Below are positions 4,746-29,530 of a DNA stretch of 64,000 bases, one piece after another. The notes beneath the pieces are model-generated. The model did not search any database, was not told where the DNA came from, and saw nothing but the letters and a program-made list of their open reading frames with translations. A program made the position numbers and the translations under genes. The DNA is from Auanema rhodensis (Eukaryota > Animalia > Nematoda), in contig OZ059895.1 in the NCBI GenBank assembly GCA_964057225.1, positions 16,616,001-16,680,000 of the forward strand, given 5' to 3'. How positions within the stretch are numbered: position 1 is the first letter of the stretch; each line of letters opens with the position of its first letter.

Positions 4746-5109
4746 AGATGTTGTTCATTCTTATATTTTTCTGTCGTTCAAATATTTCCTTTATAATGTC
4801 TGAAATCATTCTATGATCCTCTCAACTTCATGGTTTCGTTCCCAATCTCACGTCACACACAAAATAGTTAGATTGTGTACTAGTTAGATGCATTTTTGAC
4901 TTCATAAATTTTTCACACCTAATATCCCTCATCATTTTTGAAAAAACATTTCGGGGGAGAAAGCTTCAGATATGGGTTTTGATTTTTAATTCAAGCATTA
5001 AGCACTTTATTTAGAAATCTTATCAGTTTTATATATAAATTTAAGTTTTATCGTTCATTTTACAACTTTGTGATCATTTTTTATTTTCACATACTCGCTT
5101 AAGGCTAAC

Positions 5110-5762
5110 ATGGCGGGCTTTTTAATGAAACAAATGGTTGGGAACCAGCTTAATGAGGTTACTGGAGCTCTTGGCGTCGGTGGAAACGCAGATGATGGTG
5201 GTGAGAAGACAGAGACCGGCGAAGACCCAGAGGCATGTTGATTTGTTCTCGTCGGCTTTCTTCCTTTTGACAAAGATCTCTGCTTGAACAGCCATGAGAC
5301 GGCATAGGAAGGCTTCCGCTCAGACAGCTATCTTGTAGGTTGTGGCAGCTCGTTTAGAGCAAGAAGAACGTCGTAAGGAAAAGCATCGTAAAATGGAAGC
5401 AGAAAGAGAAAAGATGCGACAAGGAATCCGGGACAAGTATGCTATCAAGAAGAAGGAAGAGGGTCCTGCTATGGATTTTACCGAAGGGCGTATTGGTGGT
5501 CCTCGTAAAACTCCCGAGGTGCAGATTCTTTCCTTTAATCTTTGTCGTGATATGGTGTTGTGTCATTAGATTGAAGCTTTTCGGACTTTTTTTTTGTAAG
5601 AAAACGGACTTCCCAACTTTTTAGGAGTTGGCCGCTGCAATGAACGCCGAAGAAGACAGCCTTATTGGTCAACTTGGTCTGACTGAGCATGTTGAAAAGG
5701 CAAAAACTTTTGCTACCGGTGCCTTTGAAACTGTGAAAGGATTTCTTCCATTTGGAAAGTAA
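5110..5762 (+). CDS. cpx-1: Complexin, 3 exons (intron 1 is GC-AG, 5233-5338; intron 2 5519-5624)
   Basis: [19 protein letters not shown]...EDPE|[39 protein letters not shown]...[13 protein letters not shown], nearly identical to nematode CPX-1. Confidence 0.97.
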
Positions 5763-6324
5763 TTCACCCATTCTTCTATCTTTATTTTCTTTCTCTTCTT
5801 TCCTAACTTAACCTTATAGACTAGTTTTCTTTTATCACTCCTTACTCCTTACTCCTCACATTCACTAAAGCTCTTAATAAACTCAACGTATACTTTACGA
5901 TACATAATAGTTTTGATCGAATTACTTAAACTAGTCAAGTAGAATTTTATTCAGAAGACTTTAAATAATTTTTCATAGCCACATAATTCTAGTCAATGTA
6001 TTCTATATTATTCTTCGTCAGAAAGTTCTCTTAGGTTCTCTCTCACTTTTCTGGCTGTATTTTGTGTTTTTTCTTGTGATCGTCAGATCTCGAGATTTAT
6101 TCTCATGTAACAATATATTTATCTAATAAAAGGGAAGTAGACTTATTTTGCTTTTTTTTGTTTTCGTAAATGATTGATGAATACAAATGTGGCTTGCCAA
6201 ACTTGGAAGAAAAGATCATATTCACCTGACTCCAGAAAGAAAAACGTAAATTAACGTGATAAGATTCAATTGTGCTTTTCTTTTCTTCTATTTCCATTAC
6301 TGGAAATAATGATTTGTAGGAAGA

Positions 6325-7746
6325 ATGAACTCTCCGCCATCAGTGAGTGCCGAACAAATAGAGGAATTAGAAAAAGCGAAGTTTGCCATCCCTTCCTGGT
6401 CGGAAAAACCACCTTCTGGTTCACATTTGGATGTGTCCAAAAAGGATCAATTAATACAGGTATGAGGGATTGTTTGTATATACAATAATTTTTCCAATCT
6501 TTAATATATTCAGAAACTGATGATTGATGAAAAGAAAGCTTACTATTTTGGAAGAAATCCAAAAATGGTCTGATTTCCTTTATCCCTCTTAATTTTTGTT
6601 GTTTTTCCTTGCAGGTTGACTTTGCTGTTGAGCATGCTTCCTGCTCTCGTGTTCACGCTTTGCTTATGTATCATGGTATTTTGAAACGATTTGCTATTGT
6701 GGATATGGGCAGTAGTGAGTTGTTTGACATTCATTCCATCATGTATCGAATTTCAATAGCTGTCATACTTTTTTGAAAATATTCTCATCGATTTCCTATT
6801 GCAGGCCATGGCACGTTTGTGGGACAAGTGCGACTAGAACCATTAAAAGTAGTGTTTTTGGATATAGGAACAACTATACAATTTGGTGCTTCGACGAGAA
6901 GGTTTCGATTAATCATCCTTCATAATTATAACTAAAAACTTGTTTTTCAAGGTATACACTTAGGCTTAAAATTGAATCTAATAAGGAAGGAGATGAAGAG
7001 GATAAAGAAAAACTACCAAATGAAAAGGAACTCGAGGTTCGAACTTTGGCTTTTCCTCTCCGTAATCTTCTAATGTTGTAGGATCTTACGGAGTATAATA
7101 CCGCTGTCAATAGGCGAATTCCTCAATTGCCAATTTCTGAAGAAGAGGCGAGACGAAAAAAACGTCCTCGGGGTAATGTGTCATTCATCGAAGAGGAAGA
7201 TATCATCAATCCAGGTTTGTAGTTCCTTCTGTTCACGGTTTTCTTGTCACTCACCCCGTTTTTAGAGGATGTTGATCCTTCCGTAGGTCGTTTCCGCAAT
7301 CTTGTTTCGACAGCAATTATCTCTAATGCTCCTGGCAAGCGCCCAGCCTTTCCACCTGCTCGAGGAAGTGAACCACAAAGAAAGGTGCTTTGTCTTGTCG
7401 CATTCAAGGCAATGCTTATTATTCATTCTTTAGATTGTTCGCCCTGGTCGAGATTTCTCATTCGCTCAAACTAAGAGCTCATCTTTGAGCGGAATTTCAT
7501 TAAATGCCGCTCCAGATCTTGAATTGTACAGCCAGACTCTACCACAACCCGGAGTACATTCTAGTAAGTCATTCTGTTTGCTTGCTTTTCGCTTTGCTTT
7601 GTTGTGTTTTTTTTCAAAACACGCCATATATTGTCTTTGTAGTCGGGCCAACTCCTCAATCTGCAGCAGACGACGATGAACCACATAAGAAGAAATACGC
7701 CAAGGAAGCCTGGCCAGGACGTAAAAATTTAGCTGGAGTTCTATAG
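6325..7746 (+). CDS. PPP1R8: Nuclear inhibitor of PP1 (NIPP1/PPP1R8), FHA domain, 9 exons
   Basis: FHA motifs YYFGRN, HASCSRVHA and SHGTF; central NVSFIEEEDIINPEDVDPSVGRFRNLV; C-terminal KKKYAKEAWPGRK. Confidence 0.93.
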
Positions 7747-7915
7747 GAATATCAAAGGATCATAAGGAAAACAAACTCCTTCACAAGCGATTGAACCATG
7801 CTCAGTAAAGTTTTCTTGGATCTGAAATTTTCTCATTTATTTATTTGTTGTGTAAAGATAACTCAGTTACTTGTTACATGTTACATGTTAAATATACAGC
7901 ACGTGTTTACTGATG

Positions 7916-9060
7916 CTAATCATCTGGGTACTTTCTGATTTCCTTTGAATAAATAATAAGCTCAAGCTTTAGTTTCTCATTTCTGAAAGAGCGTGCTTGT
8001 TCGCTTAAAATTGAAATATTACTCCGTTTTTGGGTTTCTTGAGTCAGCCAGCTGACATGAAAAGGATGCTTTCGCAAACGATGGAGTAGATGAGACTGCA
8101 ATTTTTCAGAAATAGCTGTTCTGTCTCGAAAGAGAGCTAGTTAGATGAATTAAGGTTTTAAAATAAGAAAATTTTCTAATTTAGGTAATTACTTTTTTCT
8201 TTATATAGATATGTCGATTTTCAGTCTCTTAAGTCATTGAAATTCCGCTAATAACTATTTGTAAATACAAGAGTATCCTCATTTTTCATAAAAGGATTTA
8301 GTAAAGAAGCTTATATCCATCTGATTCTATTTATTTTCGATTAAACAGCCAATGCATCGTGATGTCATGACAACGGAGGCATGTTTAAAGATGCAATTCT
8401 TTTTAAAAACTCTCACAAAGAAAGGCTAGAGAGGCTGAGTGTAGCGCTCCAAGGGAGAGAAACAGAAATAAAGCAAATGCTAGAAAAGGAGGCACAGAGT
8501 AAGAACAGAATAGAAAGGCCTAGAGTTGATGTGAGTTATTTGATAAACTCTCCAGAGTTTTGCATAGTCTTTTTCCATTTTTGAAAATGGAATTTAGATC
8601 CCAAAGAGCCAGCCACACGTCTACGCATCGATTGTTCTGTCTATGAGGAATAGCTTTAGCTACTTTCATCTTTTCAACTAGTCTCTCTTTTTCTTCTTTT
8701 TGTGCTTCGAAAGAGTAAGAAGAAAAAAGAATAAAGAGAAGAGGTATGAAATTAGATAAATAACTAAAAGTAGCAAAGACAATGACAAGTAGCATGTATG
8801 TATAGTGTCTCTTGCTCATTCCAATCGATTAGTAAAAATTTCAAAAATGAATTAGTATGATGAATGTATAATAATCCGATGTTGAAAGCTCTCAAGTTGT
8901 ATCTCGTGATATGTGGAAAAGGATCTAACCAGTTTCTTGCAAATACATCAAACCCTCTCATCATTTTGCTTGTTCCTCGAATTTCTTCGGATTCAAACTC
9001 AAACGGATGAGCATAATTCACTCATGCAGTTAATCCAGGTTCATATTGCAATCTCTATGA
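7916..9060 (-). pseudogene. Possible degenerate gene fragments of unknown family
   Basis: Several coding-like minus-strand stretches (8764-9050, 8520-8710, 7916-8130), with an in-frame TGA near 9022 and no consistent splice model. No family recognised. Confidence 0.25.
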
Positions 9061-9803
9061 ATCAATTAGATTAAATATTATTATCTTCAAAATTTATGAT
9101 TGAAGTATAAACATGAAATATCATATTCAACACATATGATTATGAAAAGTTGTAAATGAATGAAGCCTATTCTTAGAATTTTAATCCCATTATTGCTTCG
9201 CTCGTTTAACTTTTCTTCTAAACTATATTAGATTATATAAATACTTGTATAGACAAGTGAAGCATATTACTTTTCAATTTTTAAACTTAATTAGACAAAA
9301 TAAATAATAATATAGAAAGTGTTGACGCTGGCGCACCTTTTTTGCCCAAATGCGATTTTGCAGATTTTCAACAATTTACAAACATTTAAACATTTTTTCA
9401 TTGAAAATCATACTTAATTTCCCCACAATGTGTCATTTTTCAAAAATGACCAAAATTTGTCTGGCGCACCACTTACCCATTTGGCCCACTTTCAATTTTA
9501 CACATTTTAAGCCATTTTAAGACTTATTTTCATTGATTTCTAACCTTCGGTCATCAAAAATGTGTCATTTCAAACAATTTTCAAAAATGGGGAAATGGTC
9601 AAAAAGTGCGTTATAAAAAATGTGGTCGAAATGGTCGAGAAAAATGCGCTAAGCCATCAAATCACAAACATAGGACTAAATTAGGAATAATTTTAAACGC
9701 GAAATTCTAATACAATTCCAAAACCCTATCCAATCCACTTCAATTTAACAGCAAAGTATACCGAATTGTAAATTGTATTTTGAACATAGAATTGGTAAAT
9801 TAT

Positions 9804-11075
9804 TTATTTTAAAAAAGTTGTTAGAGCCTTTTCAAGGCGTTTAAAATACCGATCGAATGCCGCGCGATTAACGTTCGGGTTGTTTTTCAGGACAGGAACG
9901 TTATTCATTTCTTCTCTTGCTCTGTATATATTTTTCTGAAGATTCCACTTTGCAAAAAAAGTATTCAAATAAGCGATATCAAAAGAGTTCAGAATGCTCG
10001 GCTCGACGTCGATCATGCCAAGGTTGATCTGAAATAACAAAAAATATATAAACAGTTGCACAAAAATATAAAAAAAATCACCCCAAAGTCAATAATTCTC
10101 AATTCACGAGAACAGTGTTCGTCTTCCTTCTTTTCGAGTTCAGTGATTTGTTGCTCCACCACTCCATGATTACCCTTGTTCCTGAGCAGATCGCTCAAAC
10201 AAAGTAAGAAAGACAAGATTTTCATCTGATTTCTCATTTCCATATCGATGTAGACTGGTCCGACCACTAAAAAATGAATTGAATTAGATTCATGTATAAC
10301 AATCTAAATATCACCTTCGTAAGAAGTACTCGCTATTATTTCAGAAACTGAGACTCCCGAAGCGGTTCGAAATCCATCAACTAAATTGTCAGATATAAAA
10401 TTAAAAATCAAACTGATGCCCACCTAATTTAGTTGCTATGAAGACCAGATCAGATTTGGTAATATCTGGTATCACATGAAATGGAGTAGGGACAGCTGAA
10501 TGCGAGCTTTAAGAGCAATCTCCCTTCTTCCGACCGTATTACCCGATGTGGTCATTCGTTTGATTTCACTTATCATCTGGACGTATGTCCGCCAATTTCC
10601 CAACATAATATGGCACTGAAATCAGTCAATTAACCAAACGAAAATATAAATAAAAAATATAATACTTAAAATATATATAATAAGTATTTTTGAAAGATTC
10701 TGCCTTCTAAACCAAAGATACTAATTAGGGTGGCGGAGGACTAGCCTTAAATCTATTAAAGGAAATCAGTCGATTAAACAAATAAAAATATAAAAATTCA
10801 ACTTACCACGACAAGTTCCTCAAAATCATTGATCGATTGAAGAGGATGAAGAGAGTCTGGTAGCTCTTCAGAACGAAACTCGATTTGTTGAAATTTTGGT
10901 GGGATATGCGTCACACTCTGAACCTCTATCAATAAATCCGAACGAGAAATCTGTAAATAATTTAAATTTCAGATAAAGCCAATGATCAAAGTTCACAAAC
11001 CTGTGTATCCACAACAATATTTTTGAAGAGTCGATCTTTTTTTTCTCCAACAAGTCGAATCACGAGAAAGACCAT
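9804..11075 (-). pseudogene. Cargo gene: N-terminal ubiquitin-like domain plus atypical kinase-like C-lobe; 6 exons, frameshifted by a probable internal deletion near 10490
   Basis: TTTCAG-a-ATG start. Exons 1-2 read MVFLVIRLVGEKKDRLFKNIVVDTQ|ISRSDLLIEVQSVTHIPPKFQQIEFRSEELPD...EELVV (Ubl pattern). Later exons read FHVIP...VFIATKLVDGF, LSDLLRNKGNHGV and LRIIDFG. Exon 3 changes frame between its two halves. Confidence 0.7.
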
Positions 11076-11299
11076 TCTGAAACAAAAGAATTAATAAATA
11101 AATAAACAGTTTTAATTCAAAGGAAACACGAATATAGCACAAGAACAAGAAAAGGAAGTCTCTTTTCTATTCACAAAAGTTAATGGAAGAATGCAATGTT
11201 GGCAGGTGTCGCGTCGCGTACGTCTAGCTCAACTGTGGCAAATGTTTGTTTGTGCTCGGTCACAGTGAGGAAAAGAAAAGAAGGTCACACAGAGAGAAA

Positions 11300-11846
11300 A
11301 TATCAAAATATAGAGTTATGTTATCAAGATACTGACAGTCTCATATATGACATCAAGACTGAAGATTTCTACAAAGACACTCAAAAAGATATCTCTTTTC
11401 AAAAACATTTTGATTTAAGTGATTATCCGGAAGATCATGTACTTCATTGCAAAGAAAATAAGAAAGTTGTTGGGAAATTTAAAGATGAATTGAATGGAAA
11501 TATTATGACTGAACTACTTGCTCTAAAGCCTAAACAATATGCTTTTAAGTCTCTAGACAATGAAGGAATTGAAAATGAAACCAAGAAAAGTAAAGGAATC
11601 AAGAAGAATGTTGTCAAGAATGAGTTGATTGTCGATGATTATAAGCACAGCCTTTTTAATAAGACTGTTGTAAGAAAGACTCAATATAGTATTAGGAGTG
11701 TTAAACACACTATTTTCACACAATGTCAGAATAAAGTAGCTCTCAATAATGATGAAGTTTCTACAGAACATAAACGTTATATTATTAAAGATAGTCACTC
11801 GACAATGGCATTTGGAAATGTCAATATTAAACCGAATCTTTTATAA
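11300..11846 (+). pseudogene. C-terminal fragment of protein-primed family B DNA polymerase (pPolB)
   Basis: YQDTDSL catalytic motif, KKVVGKFKDE, ALKPKQY, KSKGIKK and K-x-AL...KRY. Intronless; the N-terminal part of the enzyme is missing. Confidence 0.92.
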
Positions 11847-12067
11847 AAGAAATAAAACTGCACTTCTGAAGTCTTCTGAAGTCTCTAATAGCTTCAATAA
11901 TAACAAACAATAATAACCACAATGATGGGTTCCGAATTTTTGAATTTGAAATGTTGAAAGTTCTATTTTTCTATCTTTTCTAGCGTCAGCTAGCTTCCTT
12001 TCAGAAGATCTACTCTTGAGATATTTTATGATTTCTTCTGGTGGATTCAATCCAAAAGAATCAAAAT
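11841..12067 (-). pseudogene. C-terminal half of adenain-type cysteine protease (Maverick PRO)
   Basis: YFDSFGLNPP...QIQKFGTHHCGYYCLLLL, containing the catalytic Asp and the Gln/Cys motif. Convergent with pPolB, stop codons adjoining at 11841-11846; the fragment begins exactly at the right TIR. Confidence 0.88.
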
Positions 12068-13905
12068 AAGGTGCGCCAGCGTCAACACTTTCTATATTAT
12101 TATAAATAACAACCCAAAGGATATATTGCTTGAAATATGTTGAATCAACACCAAATTAAGAGTGTATCTTGTTGAAACAGTTCCCGCCAAAGTCTAACAG
12201 CATAATCAATCTGTACTCATGAAAGCGGAAACAGCATTATTTTTAGGATTGTATTAACACAAAGAAGACTTCAAGCAGTTTATGAAAATAACGAAGACTC
12301 CAAAAAATACTTTTAAATATGATTTTTAAAATTTTTAAGATTTTTTTCTGAATTTTTGTAGTTTGTGTCAAAAGATGGAATCCAGTGAGTGTCCCAACTA
12401 TTTCGCACAGGACTGTATATAGCAATGCATCTATATATTCCTAAATAAACTGTATATATAGATTAATAAATAGCATAATCAAGTCTTTTATTGAAATAAA
12501 AACTAAAATAGTGAAACGTACTTCATGATTCGTTTAGTTGTTGTTGATTTTTTAATTCAAAAAATGACTGATAATTTGAATCTATGAAATAAAGAAAAAT
12601 GAATGTTCGACAGATTCCGACGTGCTCTGAATGAACTGAGCAATATTCAGGCATCTAATCAGGAAGATAGAACATATTGTATCTATATTTATATACTTAT
12701 GTATTCATTTTCCAACATTTACTTATTTGAAATCTGCTATATATTACTACATTATAGTTTTATTTCTATTGATATTTGGCTCTTAATGATTGTTTGCAGC
12801 TAAATTTGCTAATATTGTCTACATTCACGAATCCTGCAGTTATCTTTCTTTTACATTTCATGAAATATAATGTTTTATAGAAATTTAGCTTTTAATGTAA
12901 AGACATTGACAAAATTAAAAATATTTGATTAACTGTAATATTTAAAAGTTGGAAAAAACAAAAAGTATGTACATGATGTTGTAGATTTATAGCTTGAGCT
13001 AGACATTTCTATTACAATATCAACATTTAAGTTATTTTTTGTTTGGAAGACAGAGAAAGGGGGGGGGGTATGAGATTTTTCTTTTTTTTCTCTCCAGTAT
13101 TCATTCTGATTTTGAAAACTTTTGCTGCTGGGTTATAGTTCTTTAGAAATTAATTATCAAATCATCTTGTCTAACAGGTAAATATCATGGAACATATTAT
13201 TATATATGGAAGCATAGTCAATGATTCTATGCATAACTGTAGCTTTGTCGTCATTTTTTCTATAAAATCATACAATTTAATCTGATTATAATTGAATTAA
13301 TATTTTGTAATATCTCTTCTTTAAGTATGAATGATATTACAGTGCTCGCACACCCGAAATGATTGAGATCTCATCAGGATGTTCACATCTAGTTAATGGT
13401 ATATATGCTTTGCTATTAGGCACAACATCACAGGTAAGAACATAAAACTGTCAAAACCCCCATCAAACGCTTATATATGAATCCAGACGTTTATGAATAT
13501 TAAAACTTTATTGAAGTTTGCAAACAATGTTGTTGTGATAATAGCAGAATAATTTTCTCGTTGGAAAAGCAGGAAAAGAGTTTCGAAAAAAAAAGTAGAG
13601 AAGAGAGGGTAATGATTGAAATTTGTACGATATGCAACTTATTCTTATTCTTAGCCGCATTTTTTAAACTATTTTTGTTATTAACTATCTAACTGCGAAT
13701 TAGTTTGCATCATAATAGACATATATGAAAACGTTTTGATCAAACAATTTCGTAACTATTGTTTGTGATATAAACCAAAATATATCTTTTTTGCAATCAT
13801 ATATTTTCATAATTATCTAATATATATATGTATTTTGTTTTTCTTTAACATTATGTTTGTACCATGCGTTAAAGTTATGCTGGAACCAGCTCATTTTGCT
13901 AATCC

Positions 13906-15665: not shown

Positions 15666-18600
15666 ACTATTTATTATAATTCAATATTTATTTTACATTA
15701 TATTATATTATATTATATATTATATTATTGTTTTTTTGGTTATAATAAATCAGAGCATCCGTTATCAATTTATGCAAATTAGTTGTATTTCATTTTATAT
15801 TTTCATTTTAAGTGAAACGGCTGTCTTTAAAATAATGCCACATAGGTGTTCACGTGTCACGTGTCACGTGCTTATATGTATTCTAATTATGAAATTGATT
15901 TAATATATTTAAGTTTGATAGCTTTAATCAATATCTGTTCACTGAAAATCAATAATTAAACCTAGTTTAATTATTTTCAAGAAGATAAAATAATTTTCAG
16001 TAGAATGCTCATTTTAAGAGTGCACACCCACTGGTATTCGACCTCATTTATTTTGATAGCTTCTATTTTTTTTTAATAATTTGCATAACAATCACAAATA
16101 ATATTAAAAGCATATATTGATATTTATAGTTTTAGTCTCTCTAAAGTATTCAAAGTGTTGAATTTTTCAAAATTTAAATTGCATGTACTTTTCACCTAGT
16201 TGAAACATTTCTGAAATATTAAATTTAAAGTAGTATATTCGTAACTGTATATCTTGTAATGTTTTTATAAACCTATCTGATAGTTATTATAAGTGTTCTT
16301 TTATTAAAATTAAAAAAAAATGGAACGTTTGATCCGGTTTGGAAATATCATCAATGATCCTCTGTACAACTGCAGGTAGTTTATCAGTTTATATTGTTTT
16401 ATGTGAATAGATACTGAAACTTAAAGTAATCTTAAATTTTTTAAGTGCCCGAAGTCCTCAAATGATTGAACAACGTTTCGCTGAACCAGCTCCATTATAT
16501 GGCTCTGTCTGCTTTGCCCTCGGTGTTATCAACCAAGTGAATTGAATCCTCAAACAGCAATATCAATTTTTTCTCAGATTCTTTACTTACTGTGTATGAA
16601 AGTAATGTTAGAACCTTCGAACTTTGTATATTCAGCTTATAAAATTATGATTCTGATTGCTGCTTGTGATGTATTTGGCACAACCTTTAATTTCGTTATC
16701 TTTGGTGCAAAATTTTTTTCTTTTCTTTAACAGTTTTCATTTCCTTAAGGTCTTATATATTATTTTGGAGCAAGTTTCTGTGATTCTCCCAACATAATTT
16801 ATGTGGCTGGCTGTATCGGAACAAGTAATGATTTGGTCATCTGAGCTGAGAAATAATTAAGGTTACTTTCAGGTGCCTGGATAACTGGCACAATTCTATC
16901 TACTATTCTGATAATAAATAGATTAGTTGAAATCAATTCTGCCAGGTATGACTTCATATTGACTTCTTTTCTCATTGCAACTCTTCAGAAATAAGATTTT
17001 GGTTAATATCTTTAATGGCAAATATACACAGAGTATAATGCTTCTGCCAATATCAACTGGCATATATTACTTAATATTCGAACCATCGGTTATTCTTGAT
17101 CCAAAAAGTGGTCTAGCAAATTGGGATCCTCAAATTTATGAGAATGCTTCATCTCTGGTTTGTTGAATTGGTATATATCAAGTATACATCGAATTATTTT
17201 TAGTTTATGAGTCCATTGCTGATATTCAATAACACTGTAATTGTTTCATTGAATAGTGTTTTGAGTATTTGTCTATGCTTTAACATATCTAAAAACCTTC
17301 ATCAAAATTTCGGATCCATCATAGATAGACGTCGTCAAGCAACGGTATATCTTTTAAAGACAACCTCAGTTTTCATTGGTCTTTCAGCTTCTTTTTCAAT
17401 GTTTAGCTATGGTTAGCATTTGTAACATTGGAGCTGTTTTTTATCTTCCAATTTTCTTCTTTAAATGTCCGAAGATTTACGAAAAAATTGCTGGGATCCT
17501 TTATCAACTTTGCACAAGTATAAGCTCTTTCTTTTCTTATTTTAAGAAATTCCTTTAGATCTCCCACCTTATATCTACCTTTTACTGAATCGTTCAATTC
17601 GCGAAGGAATAATTAGAACGTTTGTGAAATACAGACCATACCTGCTTCTCTCAATTGGTTAATTTGGTTCACTGTAAAATATAATCTTATATTCAGCTAA
17701 GAAAACAATGGCAACCGTATCAAGTTATCCTCAAAAAAGCACTATTAAGAATTACAAAATTGGTTCAAGCACAACGACGCATGATACATCTCAAGTACAA
17801 ACATAAAGAAAACCTTAATTATATTTTAGCCTTGTGAAATAGCTTCACAAATTCATTGAATTAAACGAAATATGCAGAGTCTATGCTGTATACCTGTTGA
17901 TATTTAAGCTAACCTCTTTCTGAAGTTTAAAAAGGATAAAGAAGTTAACAGCAAATTATATTTTCGAGTAGAGTTTTGGCCACCTCGATTGCAGACAGTA
18001 GATGCGATAAACAATTCTCTCTATCTAGCAAATGTTACGTTGTCACTAGGTTGTTACTATTTATTATAATTCAATATTTATTTTACATTATATTATATTA
18101 TATTATATATTATATTATTGTTTTTTTGGTTATAATAAATCAGAGCATCCGTTATCAATTTATGCAAATTAGTTGTATTTCATTTTATATTTTCATTTTA
18201 AGTGAAACGGCTGTCTTTAAAATAATGCCACATAGGTGTTCACGTGTCACGTGCTTATATGTATTCTAATTATGAAATTGATTTAATATATTTAAGTTTG
18301 ATAGCTTTAATCAATATCTGTTCACTGAAAATCAATAATTAAACCTAGTTTAATTATTTTCAAGAAGATAAAATAATTTTCAGTAGAATGCTCATTTTAA
18401 GAGTGCACACCCACTGGTATTCGACCTCATTTATTTTGATAGCTTCTATTTTTTTTTAATAATTTGCATAACAATCACAAATAATATTAAAAGCATATAT
18501 TGATATTTATAGTTTTAGTCTCTCTAAAGTATTCAAAGTGTTGAATTTTTCAAAATTTAAATTGCATGTACTTTTCACCTAGTTGAAACATTTCTGAAAT

Positions 18601-19470
18601 ATTAAATTTAAAGTAGTATATTCGTAACTGTATATCTTGTAATGTTTTTATAAACCTATCTGATAGTTATTATAAGTGTTCTTTTATTAAAATTAAAAAA
18701 AAATGGAACGTTTGATCCGGTTTGGAAATATCATCAATGATCCTCTGTACAACTGCAGGTAGTTTATCAGTTTATATTGTTTTATGTGAATAGATACTGA
18801 AACTTAAAGTAATCTTAAATTTTTTAAGTGCCCGAAGTCCTCAAATGATTGAACAACGTTTCGCTGAACCAGCTCCATTATATGGCTCTGTCTGCTTTGC
18901 CCTCGGTGTTATCAACCAAGTGAATTGAATCCTCAAACAGCAATATCAATTTTTTCTCAGATTCTTTACTTACTGTGTATGAAAGTAATGTTAGAACCTT
19001 CGAACTTTGTATATTCAGCTTATAAAATTATGATTCTGATTGCTGCTTGTGATGTATTTGGCACAACCTTTAATTTCGTTATCTTTGGTGCAAAATTTTT
19101 TTCTTTTCTTTAACAGTTTTCATTTCCTTAAGGTATTATATATTATTTTGGAGCAAGTTTCTGTGATTCTCCCAACATAATTTATGTGGCTGGCTGTATC
19201 GGAACAAGTAATGATTTGGTCATCTGAGCTGAGAAATAATTAAGGTTACTTTCAGGTGCCTGGATAACTGGCACAATTCTATCTACTATTCTGATAATAA
19301 ATAGATTAGTTGAAATCAATTCTGCCAGGTATGACTTCATATTGACTTCTTTTCTCATTGCAACTCTTCAGAAATAAGATTTTGGTTAATATCTTTAATG
19401 GCAAATATACACAGAGTATAATGCTTCTGCCAATATCAACTGGCATATATTACTTAATATTCGAACCATC
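15666..19470 (+). repeat. Recent direct duplication: 15666-17087 matches 18056-19470
   Basis: Near-identical promoter, exons and introns at an offset of 2390 then 2383 bp (7-bp GTCACGT indel). The ORF track gives identical peptides at 16542 and 18925. Confidence 0.95.
16320..17806 (+). CDS. Srt-family 7TM chemoreceptor (copy 1), 10 exons
   Basis: MERLIRFGNIINDPLYNCSARSP start typical of Srt, then AYKIM, FCDSPNIIY, IINRL, FNN, QC and PPYIYLLLNRSIR. Confidence 0.85.
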
Positions 19471-26060: not shown

Positions 26061-27501
26061 ATGGAACGTTTGTTTATTTATGGATCAATCACTAATGATC
26101 CTCTATATAACTGCAGGTAAAAGCTTAATATAAGTTTTTTAATCGATATATTGAATGATTAAGTGCTAGAACTCCGGAAATGATCAAACTATCTACAGCT
26201 ACTCCTAATTTACCGTTTGGGATTGGTCTTCTGGTTTTGGGTACTGTTACAGAAGTCAGTAGTTACAAGTTTTTTTTGCTTATAAATTTATGTTTAGTTT
26301 GTTCTATTTCCCTGCATAAAAGTCATGCTTGAACCTACTAACATTGTCTACCCAGCCTATAAGCTTATGACATCTTTGAGCATTTGTGATGTCTTTTCGG
26401 TCATTGGAACTTGTTGCTTGACTGGTGAATCCAAGATTATACTCACCTTTATATATTTAAGACATATACTAATTCAGGAGCATTATCCATCTTTGGGGTC
26501 TCTTTCTGTGATAGCCCTAATATCATATACATGCTAGGATCTATTACTGGAGGTAAGATCTTCTGACATCATTCTGTTTCAACCTCAACAAACCATTTTA
26601 AAGGTCTATGGATTACATCATCTCTTCTTTCATTAGCATTAATTACAAATCGACTAGTTGCTATAGGAAGTGTGAAGTATGTTTGATCTTTAGTCAATAA
26701 ACATCATCTCTCCGATCTCAGAGGTTCCTTACTCAACTATCTATTCAACGGAAAAAGCACATACTTTCTTATAATCGGTGCTGCTCTTATCGGATCTTAT
26801 TATGCAATGCGACGTCATCCTGTAATCCTTCATATAAACCATTTGGTCCCAATTTGGGATCCATTAATTTACCCAAACTCTCTTCATCTTGTAAGTTATA
26901 GCTTTTTAGTGAAAGCTGCCAGATCATCATTATATATTTCTTTAAGTATTTTGATAATTTCCTTCTGTTCAACAATTGCTTCATCGTTAGTTGTACAGCT
27001 ATACTCTACATCGTATTCTGCTTTAAAATTGCCAATACGGTCAGAAAAAACAAAATCGCATCAAACATACAAACCCAAAAATCACGGGTAATCAGAATAC
27101 ATCTGACATTATGGCTTACAACACAACGATTTCAGTTCTTTGCTCAATGTTCCGTTATTGTGGGCTTTAATTGTACTGCTGCAGCTATGTACATCTTGGC
27201 TAGCATTATCAATTTGCCAATTTTTTTACAAGTGTTCGCGGCTTTATCATATCCATTAACTATAAGTAAGTAAACTAATTAAGAAAGAAATTAACCGTCT
27301 GTCTCTGCAGCTGTACCTGCTTATGCATACTTATTCCTCAACAATACCATACGTAATGGAGTTAAAAAGCTCTTCTGTAAAAACAGTGCTCAACATTCTA
27401 CACATGTTTGTTAGTTTCTTTAATCTTTCTTATATATGTATTCCTTTTCTGAAGACGACGTCAAATCTACGGTGGCCGCTAACATGCGAACAATGGAGTA
27501 G
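26061..27501 (+). CDS. Srt-family 7TM chemoreceptor (copy 4); last-exon frame ambiguous (stop at 27501 or 27526)
   Basis: MERLFIYGSITNDPLYNCSARTP, AYKLM, FCDSPNIIY, ITNRL, FNN, QC and PAYAYLFLNNTIR. Confidence 0.83.
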
Positions 27502-28022
27502 TACCCGTATAGGTGATTACGTTTAACACGTAAATCATAATTAATTTGAAATTAACTTCAATAAGGAGATAATAAGCTATTATTAAACATGACCTATGAA
27601 TGATATATAAATATATTTAAAATATATGATTAATTAAAATTATTATACTATAATAATATGAAATTATGCAAAATATTTAAATTTGGCACGTTTATACTAC
27701 ATAAAAAATCTGCAACTTCAGAGAATAGCGGAAATGAAAACATATACTATTTTAGGAATGTATTCTTTTCCGATTACTGGAACAGAATATCTTGGTACAA
27801 ACAACAAGTTGTAAATCTCATACTGATTAAAAGTTTTTGGTTTTGCTACACGATATTTAACTCAAATGAGAACACAAAAGTACCAAAGGTATAAGCATGA
27901 AACACTCAAAACTTGAAATACTAAGAACTTGTACTAAACGTGATTACATGATTTCTTTCTAGAGTGGAAAAAAATGAAATGAATCATAATAAACTAAAAT
28001 AATACATTAAAAATTAATTGAA

Positions 28023-29530
28023 TTAGAAACCATGACCATTTTTGCTACTATAATATATTACATCAACAGTACTAGTCTTAGAACGTAAGCAGCAAGCTTT
28101 AAAATTGTTGTGGTTCCTATATTCTTCATAAGCTTGATTATAGGCATGTTTTTGTCCAACACATATTCCAATGACACCTTTACGTATAGTATGATTTAGT
28201 AACAAATACGTATATGTTGGCATAGCTAAATATTAAATAAAAGTTTCATCAAATACGTCAAGTTTATACTTAGTGTTAGAGGATAGACGAAAGCAGAAGC
28301 ATATAGAACTATATCTGATAAACATATTATATTTGCGAGAATGTATATGCAAGCAGACAAAAAGTTCAAACCAACAATAATGCTGCATTGAGCAAAAAAC
28401 TTAAAAGATAAGTATTAACAGGTGTTTGATCAAAGTCATGAAGCAACCCTCAGTCGCTGTTTATGCACATGTGAGCTCCTGTTCTCTGTGACCGTATTGG
28501 CAATTTTAAAGCAGAATACGATGTAGAGTATAGCTGTACAACTAACGATGAAGCAATTGTTGAACAGAAGGAAATTATCAAAATACTTAAAGAAATATAT
28601 AATGATGATCTGGCAGCTTTCACTAAAAAGCTATAACTTACAAGATGAAGAGAGTTTGGGTAAATTAATGGATCCCAAATTGGTGTTAGAAGATGAACAT
28701 GAAATATTGTTGGTGGATGAAATATCATAGAGTACAATGCAATACTAATAGCAATAACGATATAAAAATACACATTCTTTCCATCAAATATAAAATGAAG
28801 TTTAGAATTTCTAAATCAAAGACATTTCCAGCCTTTCGAACATTCATACATCGTTTTACCCTGCAGTTATGCCAATAGCAATCAAACGATTAGCAATGAG
28901 TGCAAGAGAAATCTGAGAAGACATAATCCAAAATCCTCAAGATGATCATTATAAAATACTATCGCATGCGCTTGCATGTTAGTGTGTTTCGAATTTATTA
29001 TTCGAATTTTTTAATTGACAAACCTCCAGAAACGATATTAGCTACATAATTCAAATTAGGCCAATCACAGAAAGATGTCCCAGTGACAGATAATGAACCT
29101 GAAAAGTATATGATTAAGTAATATTAACTTTGATTTTATAAAATTAATGAAGTAATGCTACCATATATACAGCAGACGACGATAATTGAAATCATGTCAC
29201 CGATGCTTAAAGCTGCCATAAGCTTATATGCTGAATGAACAAAGTTATGAGGCGCTAGCATAGCTTTGACGCATAGAAAAAGGAAAAACTGAAAAAGGAA
29301 AAACGAGGTATTTGTTATAATGATAATAAATTATACCTCGGTTACTATACCTATAACTAGAAGAAATGTACCATATGGAATATTAGGAGTAGCTGTAGAT
29401 AGTTTGATCATTTCCGGGGTTCTAGCACTTAATCATTCAATATATCAATTAAAAAACTTATATTAAGCTTTTACCTGCAGTTATATAGAGGATCATTAGT
29501 GATTGATCCATAAATAAGCAAACGTTCCAT
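28023..29530 (-). CDS. Srt-family 7TM chemoreceptor (copy 5), convergent with copy 4
   Basis: MERLLIYGSITNDPLYNCSARTP, AYKLM, FCDWPNL, IANRL and PTYTYLLLNHTIR. Confidence 0.83.

What the first reader, a model, noticed from the sequence alone, without database searches (positions are those of the whole stretch)
9298..12109. Miniature Maverick with intact ends and TSD carrying a spliced Ubl-kinase cargo gene
Seen: perfect 36-bp TIRs, a 6-bp AAATAA duplication, pPolB and protease remnants, and a six-exon gene with its own upstream region inside 2.8 kb. Known: Mavericks/Polintons are usually about 15-20 kb, make 6-bp TSDs, and in nematodes are reported to carry cargo families (wosp proteases, krma kinases) between species. 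Inference: one TIR is cut to 36 bp and abuts the protease fragment yet the TSD is intact, so either this mini form was mobilised in trans as a gene shuttle or it decayed in place after a recent insertion. The termini read ATAATAAT rather than the usual AGTAGT.
Basis: partly seen in the sequence, partly recalled or inferred. Interest (0 to 1): 0.85.

Follow-up and report, generated by a model that had tools for sequence, protein, structure and literature searches.

The report
Shrunken Maverick with broken kinase cargo
A 2.8-kb relic of a virus-like Maverick transposon in a nematode genome keeps both ends and its target-site duplication, but its kinase passenger gene has lost its front half and is out of frame, so it is most likely a single decayed insertion, not an active gene shuttle.

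Summary
The ends are real: perfect 36-bp inverted repeats (9304-9339, 12068-12103) and a 6-bp duplication. Inside lie the last 181 codons of a pPolB2-type Maverick polymerase (83% identical to C. briggsae), the 3' part of the protease tail-to-tail with it, and a six-exon ubiquitin-like/kinase cargo of the krma type. The element thus has three internal deletions. In public contigs the cargo and the polymerase junction stand at about the depth of unique flank, while the ends and polymerase stand 6 to 22 times higher: a multi-copy parent family, but no amplified mini family. No empty site appeared in 4 runs laid. Another organism holds the cargo at 96-97% without the flanks and runs on past the break, which fits the known horizontal traffic of krma genes. 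Verdict: a decayed Maverick carrying a krma pseudogene; a known kind. Whether the deletions came before or after integration is open. Splicing and expression are untested.

The parts
9298..9303 (.). Left target-site duplication AAATAA
9304..9339 (+). Left terminal inverted repeat, 36 bp perfect match to the right end; begins ATAATAAT
9340..9620 (+). Rest of the left arm, likely the inner TIR of the parent; two degenerate units of about 133 bp (9328-9455 and 9461-9586, 66% alike); multi-copy in all four runs laid
9804..10028 (-). Cargo exon 6 (predicted), kinase C-terminal helices, open, natural stop
   Evidence: 89% to C. briggsae P0122
10082..10266 (-). Cargo exon 5 (predicted), holds the DLLRNKGN and IIDFG kinase-like motifs
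   Evidence: 96% to P0122, 89% to P0121
10315..10380 (-). Cargo exon 4 (predicted)
   Evidence: 86% to P0121
10424..10615 (-). Cargo exon 3 (predicted), fused across an internal deletion at about 10478-10484; about 121 codons missing, frame changed, stop at 10474-10472
   Evidence: run X12 contig runs on for 304 unlike letters beyond 10479
10807..10950 (-). Cargo exon 2 (predicted), second part of the ubiquitin-like domain
   Evidence: 73% to C. nigoni P0141, 60% to P0121
11001..11075 (-). Cargo exon 1 (predicted), start codon directly behind a TTTCAG acceptor, a likely trans-splice site
   Evidence: 76% to P0121
11076..11300 (.). Upstream segment; about 11150-11300 is multi-copy and likely Maverick backbone; large deletion junction at about 11300
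   Evidence: depth; loose ends behind 11299 in X12; bridging contig 11158-11354 in X2
11301..11846 (+). Last 181 codons of a pPolB2-type protein-primed DNA polymerase, open, from the YQDTDS motif to the stop
11841..12068 (-). 3' part (75 codons) of the Maverick cysteine protease, tail-to-tail with pPolB; lacks the His-Trp motif seen upstream in relative L081
12068..12103 (-). Right TIR, cut to 36 bp, joined to the protease fragment in an A-rich stretch
12104..12109 (.). Right target-site duplication AAATAA

Best explanation
This is the remnant of a pPolB2-type nematode Maverick with a broken krma-type cargo, which likely integrated once as a longer element and likely shrank in place by three internal deletions. 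Shown: the ends, the 6-bp duplication, the three remnants and the three breaks. Inferred: a parent of about 15-16 kb inserted through its own integrase; one deletion took the integrase-to-polymerase block, one took the front of the protease and the inner right TIR, one took most of the kinase N-lobe and shifted the frame. The copy now cannot replicate or integrate by itself and is predicted to give at most a 120-residue ubiquitin-like stub. It is inherited as host DNA.
For: pPolB 83% to C. briggsae CBG25359/CBG25579, matching only residues 1021-1197 of 1199; these relatives carry the HNH domain that marks pPolB2. The same tail-to-tail pPolB/protease overlap occurs in L081. Cargo 3' end faces the TIR, as reported for nematode Mavericks. 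Cargo deletion and frame shift. In X2, contigs bridging the cargo break (9705-10600, depth 227.2) and the 11300 junction (11158-11354, depth 227.6) match unique-flank contigs (138-277), while TIR and pPolB bins are 6-22 times higher. 9 of 20 listed runs, from 3 studies, hold 0.82-0.93 of the words of 9000-12400; no empty-site joint was listed in 4 of 4 runs laid. X9 contigs break on both sides of 10011-10014 with 29-30 unlike letters, which looks like a further insertion into exon 6 (inferred). Most nematode and 96% of vertebrate Mavericks are decayed.
Against: No intermediate allele (same site, fewer deletions) was seen, so the order of deletion and insertion is not shown. Contig depth is not a copy number by the tool's own note. 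In X9 the cargo core (18.7-21.4) is about twice the nearest flank contigs (10.4-12), though equal to the farther flank (18.3), which leaves room for a second copy. The 12067 junction was not resolved by depth. Tables were cut (358 loose ends and 819 pieces not shown). Apart from the three breaks the remnants have no stop codon, so three deletions fell in a fairly short time. No full-length parent with these termini was seen.
Confidence: 0.68

Rival explanations
1. The deletions arose during replication of a free Maverick genome, and the 2.8-kb defective genome was integrated once by the integrase of a helper element.
For: Both termini and the TSD are exact; remnants have no point-mutation stops; helper-type copies are abundant in the same runs; polintons lacking polB that stayed mobile are reported in insects. 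This also predicts one copy.
Against: The right TIR is cut on one side only; the cargo deletion gives no replication benefit beyond length; intact ends are expected from how the finding was noticed. No second site seen.
Confidence: 0.19
2. It belongs to a mobile non-autonomous mini-Maverick family with the same junctions at several loci.
For: X9 cargo core at about twice the nearest flank depth. A zebrafish family is named Polinton-1N1_DR (reading N as non-autonomous is recalled convention).
Against: Single-locus depth of two junctions in X2; one copy in the 64-kb window; twofold depth swings also occur among unique contigs of X2. The cargo is broken, so it would shuttle no working kinase.
Confidence: 0.08
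3. The ends belong to another DNA transposon that captured pieces of a Maverick, as a MULE did for msft-1.
For: The termini do not match the three motifs listed for vertebrate Mavericks; no parent with these ends was retrieved. MULE capture of Maverick cargo is documented.
Against: The 6-bp TSD and the order of parts fit a Maverick; TIR depth (about 16 times) is about twice pPolB depth (6-13 times) in X2; in X12 the left arm runs into the cargo 3' end on one contig.
Confidence: 0.05

Closest known systems
Nematode Mavericks with krma cargo (Widen et al., bioRxiv 10.1101/2022.07.12.499685; parts 1-5 of 7 and passages read)
   Same: Intron-bearing ubiquitin-like/kinase cargo beside the left TIR, 3' end toward the TIR; the relative P0131 folds like CtkA/HipA/PI4KII kinases; near-identical cargo in other species; ubiquitin-like and kinase parts have different closest relatives; 121 of 532 KRMA genes lie by complete or partial Mavericks.
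   Different: 2.8 kb, both ends and TSD kept, no integrase, ATPase, capsid or fusogen, cargo lacks most of its N-lobe. Whether this locus is in their Data S2 could not be seen.
pPolB2-class Polintons of Caenorhabditis (Jeong et al., bioRxiv 10.1101/2023.08.22.554363 / PMC10748475; sections 5-7, passages and parts 1 and 262 of the supplement read)
   Same: Polymerase closest to HNH-bearing C. briggsae pPolBs; 6-bp TSD and TIR.
   Different: Listed C. briggsae pPolB2 elements in the part read are 15.0-26.4 kb, mostly 15-16 kb; their search required five core proteins, so a remnant like this one would not be listed.
Polinton remnants in C. elegans, eri-6/7 locus (PMC11414722; passages read)
   Same: Short remnants from the pPolB end with TIR and no integrase.
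   Different: pPolB1 class, 744-bp TIR; cargo or paired ends with TSD are not mentioned in the passages read.
Non-autonomous or polB-less polintons (Pannagram, bioRxiv 10.1101/2025.02.07.637071, passages; Polinton-1N1_DR, one mention in PMC9341505)
   Same: Ends kept, core genes lost.
   Different: The insect elements show several related insertions; here no second site was found.

Membership tests
Maverick/Polinton (autonomous) | Terminal inverted repeats | tested here: met
   36 bp perfect; shorter than the 46-1447 bp of intact vertebrate elements because the right one is cut
Maverick/Polinton (autonomous) | 6-bp target-site duplication | tested here: met
   AAATAA both sides
Maverick/Polinton (autonomous) | Protein-primed DNA polymerase B | tested here: met
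   C-terminal remnant only, 181 of about 1200 residues, 83% to C. briggsae pPolB
Maverick/Polinton (autonomous) | Adenain-like protease | tested here: met
   3' remnant; Atlas score 0.94 to a cluster with Peptidase_C48 on 33% of members; 55% to the protease beside pPolB in L081. Pfam and PDB sequence searches found nothing
Maverick/Polinton (autonomous) | Integrase, packaging ATPase, capsid genes (and fusogen in nematodes); 13-25 kb | tested here: not met
   The 2800 bp are accounted for by other parts; only two open frames of 100 aa or more overlap the element. Filed as a Maverick-derived remnant, not an autonomous member
Maverick/Polinton (autonomous) | Short tandem end motif such as (AGT)2, (AG)3, (AC)3A | tested here: inconclusive
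   Ends read (ATA)2, a tandem motif but not one of the three vertebrate motifs; nematode termini were not found in the texts searched
pPolB2 class | HNH insertion in the polymerase | tested here: inconclusive
   That region is deleted here; the three closest relatives carry it (E 9e-9, 0.002, 4e-9)
KRMA kinases | N-terminal ubiquitin-like domain | tested here: met
   Exons 1-2 match residues 1-73 of relatives; model of P0131 residues 1-76 aligns to ubiquitin folds, Z 10.6, rmsd 1.8, 72 aligned
KRMA kinases | CtkA/HipA-like kinase fold | tested here: met
   Shown for the full-length relative P0131: residues 153-412 to CtkA, Z 10.1, rmsd 4.2, 198 aligned
KRMA kinases | Complete catalytic domain in one reading frame | tested here: not met
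   Residues 118-238 missing, with the Lys kept in 9 of 10 and the Glu kept in 8 of 9 aligned relatives (their role as the kinase Lys-Glu pair is inferred); stop in exon 3. It is a krma-type pseudogene
KRMA kinases | Sequence match to a named KRMA protein | not testable with these tools
Non-autonomous mobile family | Amplified: same junctions at many copies | tested here: not met
   Cargo break and 11300 junction at unique-flank depth in X2
Non-autonomous mobile family | At least one second site with a different TSD, or an empty site | tested here: inconclusive
   None listed in 4 of 20 runs laid; X9 depth is ambiguous; tables cut; no host assembly held

The most novel reading that the evidence does not exclude
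A defective 2.8-kb Maverick genome, with a 36-bp right end and a new (ATA)2 end motif, was replicated and integrated in trans by a helper. That would bound the cis sequence a nematode Maverick needs at 36 bp on one end and show that mini-Mavericks can carry intron-bearing cargo.
Probability: 0.22. Interest if true: 0.55.

Novelty: new member of a known kind. Interest (0 to 1): 0.22.

Why it matters
As read, it matters little: decayed Mavericks with krma cargo are described. It adds one locus that ties a krma-type gene to a pPolB2-type element, an end motif not among those listed for vertebrates, and another likely case of recent cargo sharing between nematodes. If the junctions turned up at a second site, it would show mobilisation in trans and put an upper bound on the end sequence needed, which bears on how Mavericks move.

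Tried and rejected
No host assembly was held, so the genome-wide BLASTN could not be run. Exact TIR pattern: 0 matches in viral and metagenome contigs. Full-length pPolB P0002 against viral contigs: 39 candidates, none confirmed. The pPolB alignment gave 88 loci, all 58% or less; none matched the left arm, upstream segment or cargo. Phage records: no match. The KRMA alignment was too diverse for the locus search. Pfam found no meaningful family for the window fragments, PDB sequences none for the protease. Earlier-findings look-ups by sequence and place gave nothing. Other joints (X10 9348 to 11914; X12 11620 to 11905; X9 9609 to 11147) have short sides or unknown letters between and are not used as proof of other deleted copies; the last is only a hint that the cargo sits in a slot. 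Rejected: 'intact six-exon gene'; a seventh exon through cryptic sites could keep a frame on paper but would still lack the N-lobe, and is untested. X12's lack of cover on exons 1-2 is not used as evidence. Eight paper searches found no description of a miniature krma-bearing Maverick or of nematode Maverick end motifs; the library lacks most subscription papers, and Widen's supplements were not seen.

Full report
Observation. The element spans 9304-12103 (2800 bp). Its ends are perfect inverted repeats for 36 bp and 39 of 40 bp alike overall. AAATAA flanks both sides; of duplication lengths 3-11 only 6 matches, and two random flank 6-mers agree about 6 times in 10,000. The only other exact inverted repeats of 20 bp or more in the window are simple AT or AG runs and one inverted gene duplication. 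There is one copy in the window.

Maverick parts. 11301-11843 encodes 181 residues, 83% identical to C. briggsae CBG25359 and CBG25579, matching residues 1021-1197 of the 1199-residue protein. The three closest relatives carry an endonuclease VII/HNH domain, which Jeong et al. give as the mark of terrestrial nematode pPolB2. On the other strand, 75 codons end in a stop that overlaps the pPolB stop region (11841-11846). The fragment scores 0.94 to clusters of C48-type cysteine proteases in the ESM Atlas (family on 33% of the best cluster's members) and is 55% identical to the protease that lies tail-to-tail with pPolB in L081, with the same overlap. L081 has a His-Trp motif upstream of where the window fragment begins; the window lacks it. 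Pfam and PDB sequence searches did not recognise the fragment.

Cargo. Six blocks on the minus strand have GT..AG borders and match C. auriculariae P0121 (60-94% per block), C. briggsae P0122 (96% and 89% on exons 5 and 6), Halicephalobus P0125 and others. A model of the full-length relative P0131 (412 aa, mean pLDDT 80) has a ubiquitin fold at 1-76 (Z 10.6) and a CtkA-like kinase at 153-412 (Z 10.1, rmsd 4.2, 198 aligned), with HipA, PI4KII and Rio2 among the Foldseek hits. That is the description of KRMA in Widen et al.; the named sequences could not be compared. The window copy lacks residues 118-238 of both P0121 and P0131, and the match switches frame at about 10484-10478. The lost part holds the strands and helix with a Lys kept in 9 of 10 and a Glu kept in 8 of 9 aligned relatives that cover them; that these are the kinase Lys-Glu pair is inferred from kinase anatomy. 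The exons sum to 887 nt and exon 3 stops at its 48th codon, so canonical splicing would give 120 residues. The cargo is a pseudogene. Splicing and expression are untested.

Copies. No host assembly was available. Of 20 public runs listed, 9 from 3 studies and 3 organism labels hold 0.82-0.93 of the words of 9000-12400; one may be the source sample. Four were laid as contigs. In X2, one contig spans the cargo break (9705-10600, depth 227.2) and one the 11300 junction (11158-11354, 227.6); unique flank contigs are 276, 277, 203 and 138. The left-arm bins stand at about 3750, the 11198-11358 bin at 4900 and pPolB bins at 1450-2930. So a parent family is present in many copies and this deleted form, by depth, in one. 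The tool warns that depth is not copy number. X9 is less clean: the cargo core is 18.7-21.4, the nearest flanks 10.4-12 and the farther flank 18.3; a second partial copy is possible, but X2 shows twofold swings among unique contigs too. The 12067 junction was not resolved. No empty-site joint was listed in the four runs; loose-end and piece tables were cut. X12, a different organism label, has almost no flank cover but holds 9625-10022 (17 differences in 400) and 10007-10479 (12 in 474), and that contig runs on for 304 letters unlike the window exactly at the cargo break. This places the deletion in the window's lineage and fits recent sharing of the cargo between organisms; contamination of that run was not excluded.

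Mechanism. [quoted passage not shown] The window keeps that order: TIR, cargo 3' end, cargo start, then pPolB end, protease end, TIR. C. briggsae pPolB2 elements are mostly 15-16 kb, so over four fifths is gone. The simplest account is one integration followed by three deletions. The right junction lies in an A-rich stretch alike on both sides, which would suit microhomology-mediated repair (own knowledge; weak). The rival is that the deletions arose in a free genome that a helper then integrated once; depth cannot tell these apart, an allele with fewer deletions would. A spreading mini family and capture by another transposon are less likely.

Comparison and novelty. Partial Mavericks with krma cargo, pPolB-end remnants and polB-less mobile polintons are all described, and 96% of vertebrate loci are decayed. 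The (ATA)2 end is not among the three vertebrate motifs; I found no statement of nematode end motifs in the passages and supplements searched. Two unchecked notes from this scan describe gene-less Maverick-ended elements in other genomes, one spread to dozens of sites with cargo; they were not tested and only show that the trans-mobile case is not unique to this locus. Papers seen: Widen preprint parts 1-5 of 7 and passages; Jeong sections 5-7, passages and two supplement parts; Barreat section 7 and passages; passages only of PMC11414722, Pannagram, PMC3014272, PMC2836005, PMC9341505, PMC5499653 and PMC10680173.

Verdict. A real, tidy relic of a known kind: new member, interest 0.22. The most novel reading not excluded, integration in trans of a ready-made mini genome, has probability about 0.22.

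Noticed in passing
window 12164-12417: A separate high-copy repeat just right of the element (bins at 8,000-13,000 against about 200 in X2); it ends in ACTG followed by TA, which resembles a Tc1/mariner end (recalled).
   Followed up: no
window 10011-10014: In run X9 the contigs on both sides run on for 29-30 unlike letters with a 4-base overlap, as a further insertion into cargo exon 6 would give.
   Followed up: partly
window 11015 and 11039: Runs X2 and X9 both read other letters at these two places of exon 1 at full depth: strain differences or assembly errors.
   Followed up: no
window 10807-11075: Exon 2 is closest to C. nigoni P0141 (73%), whose kinase part gives no hit to exons 3-6, while exons 3-6 are closest to P0121/P0122: the ubiquitin-like/kinase modularity reported by Widen et al.
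   Followed up: partly
P0123 (C. briggsae gene model): Joins the C-terminal part of this krma type to a trypsin-like protease (Pfam Trypsin_2, E 0.003, under its cut-off): perhaps krma and wosp cargo side by side at one locus.
   Followed up: no
P0005 (C. briggsae CBG03970): Its last exon matches the antisense strand of the protease up to the 12067 junction, so that element has the same pPolB/protease layout.
   Followed up: partly
window 26074-29517: Inverted duplication with exact arms of 136 and 195 bp over two similar open frames.
   Followed up: no
window 16485-16727 and 18868-19110: Two srt chemoreceptor exons with identical Pfam scores, about 2.4 kb apart: a recent tandem duplication.
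   Followed up: no
window 5074-7750: Host genes left of the element: complexin (Synaphin) and an FHA-domain gene. No Pfam hit within about 2.5 kb left or 4 kb right among the open frames scanned, so the insertion looks intergenic.
   Followed up: partly
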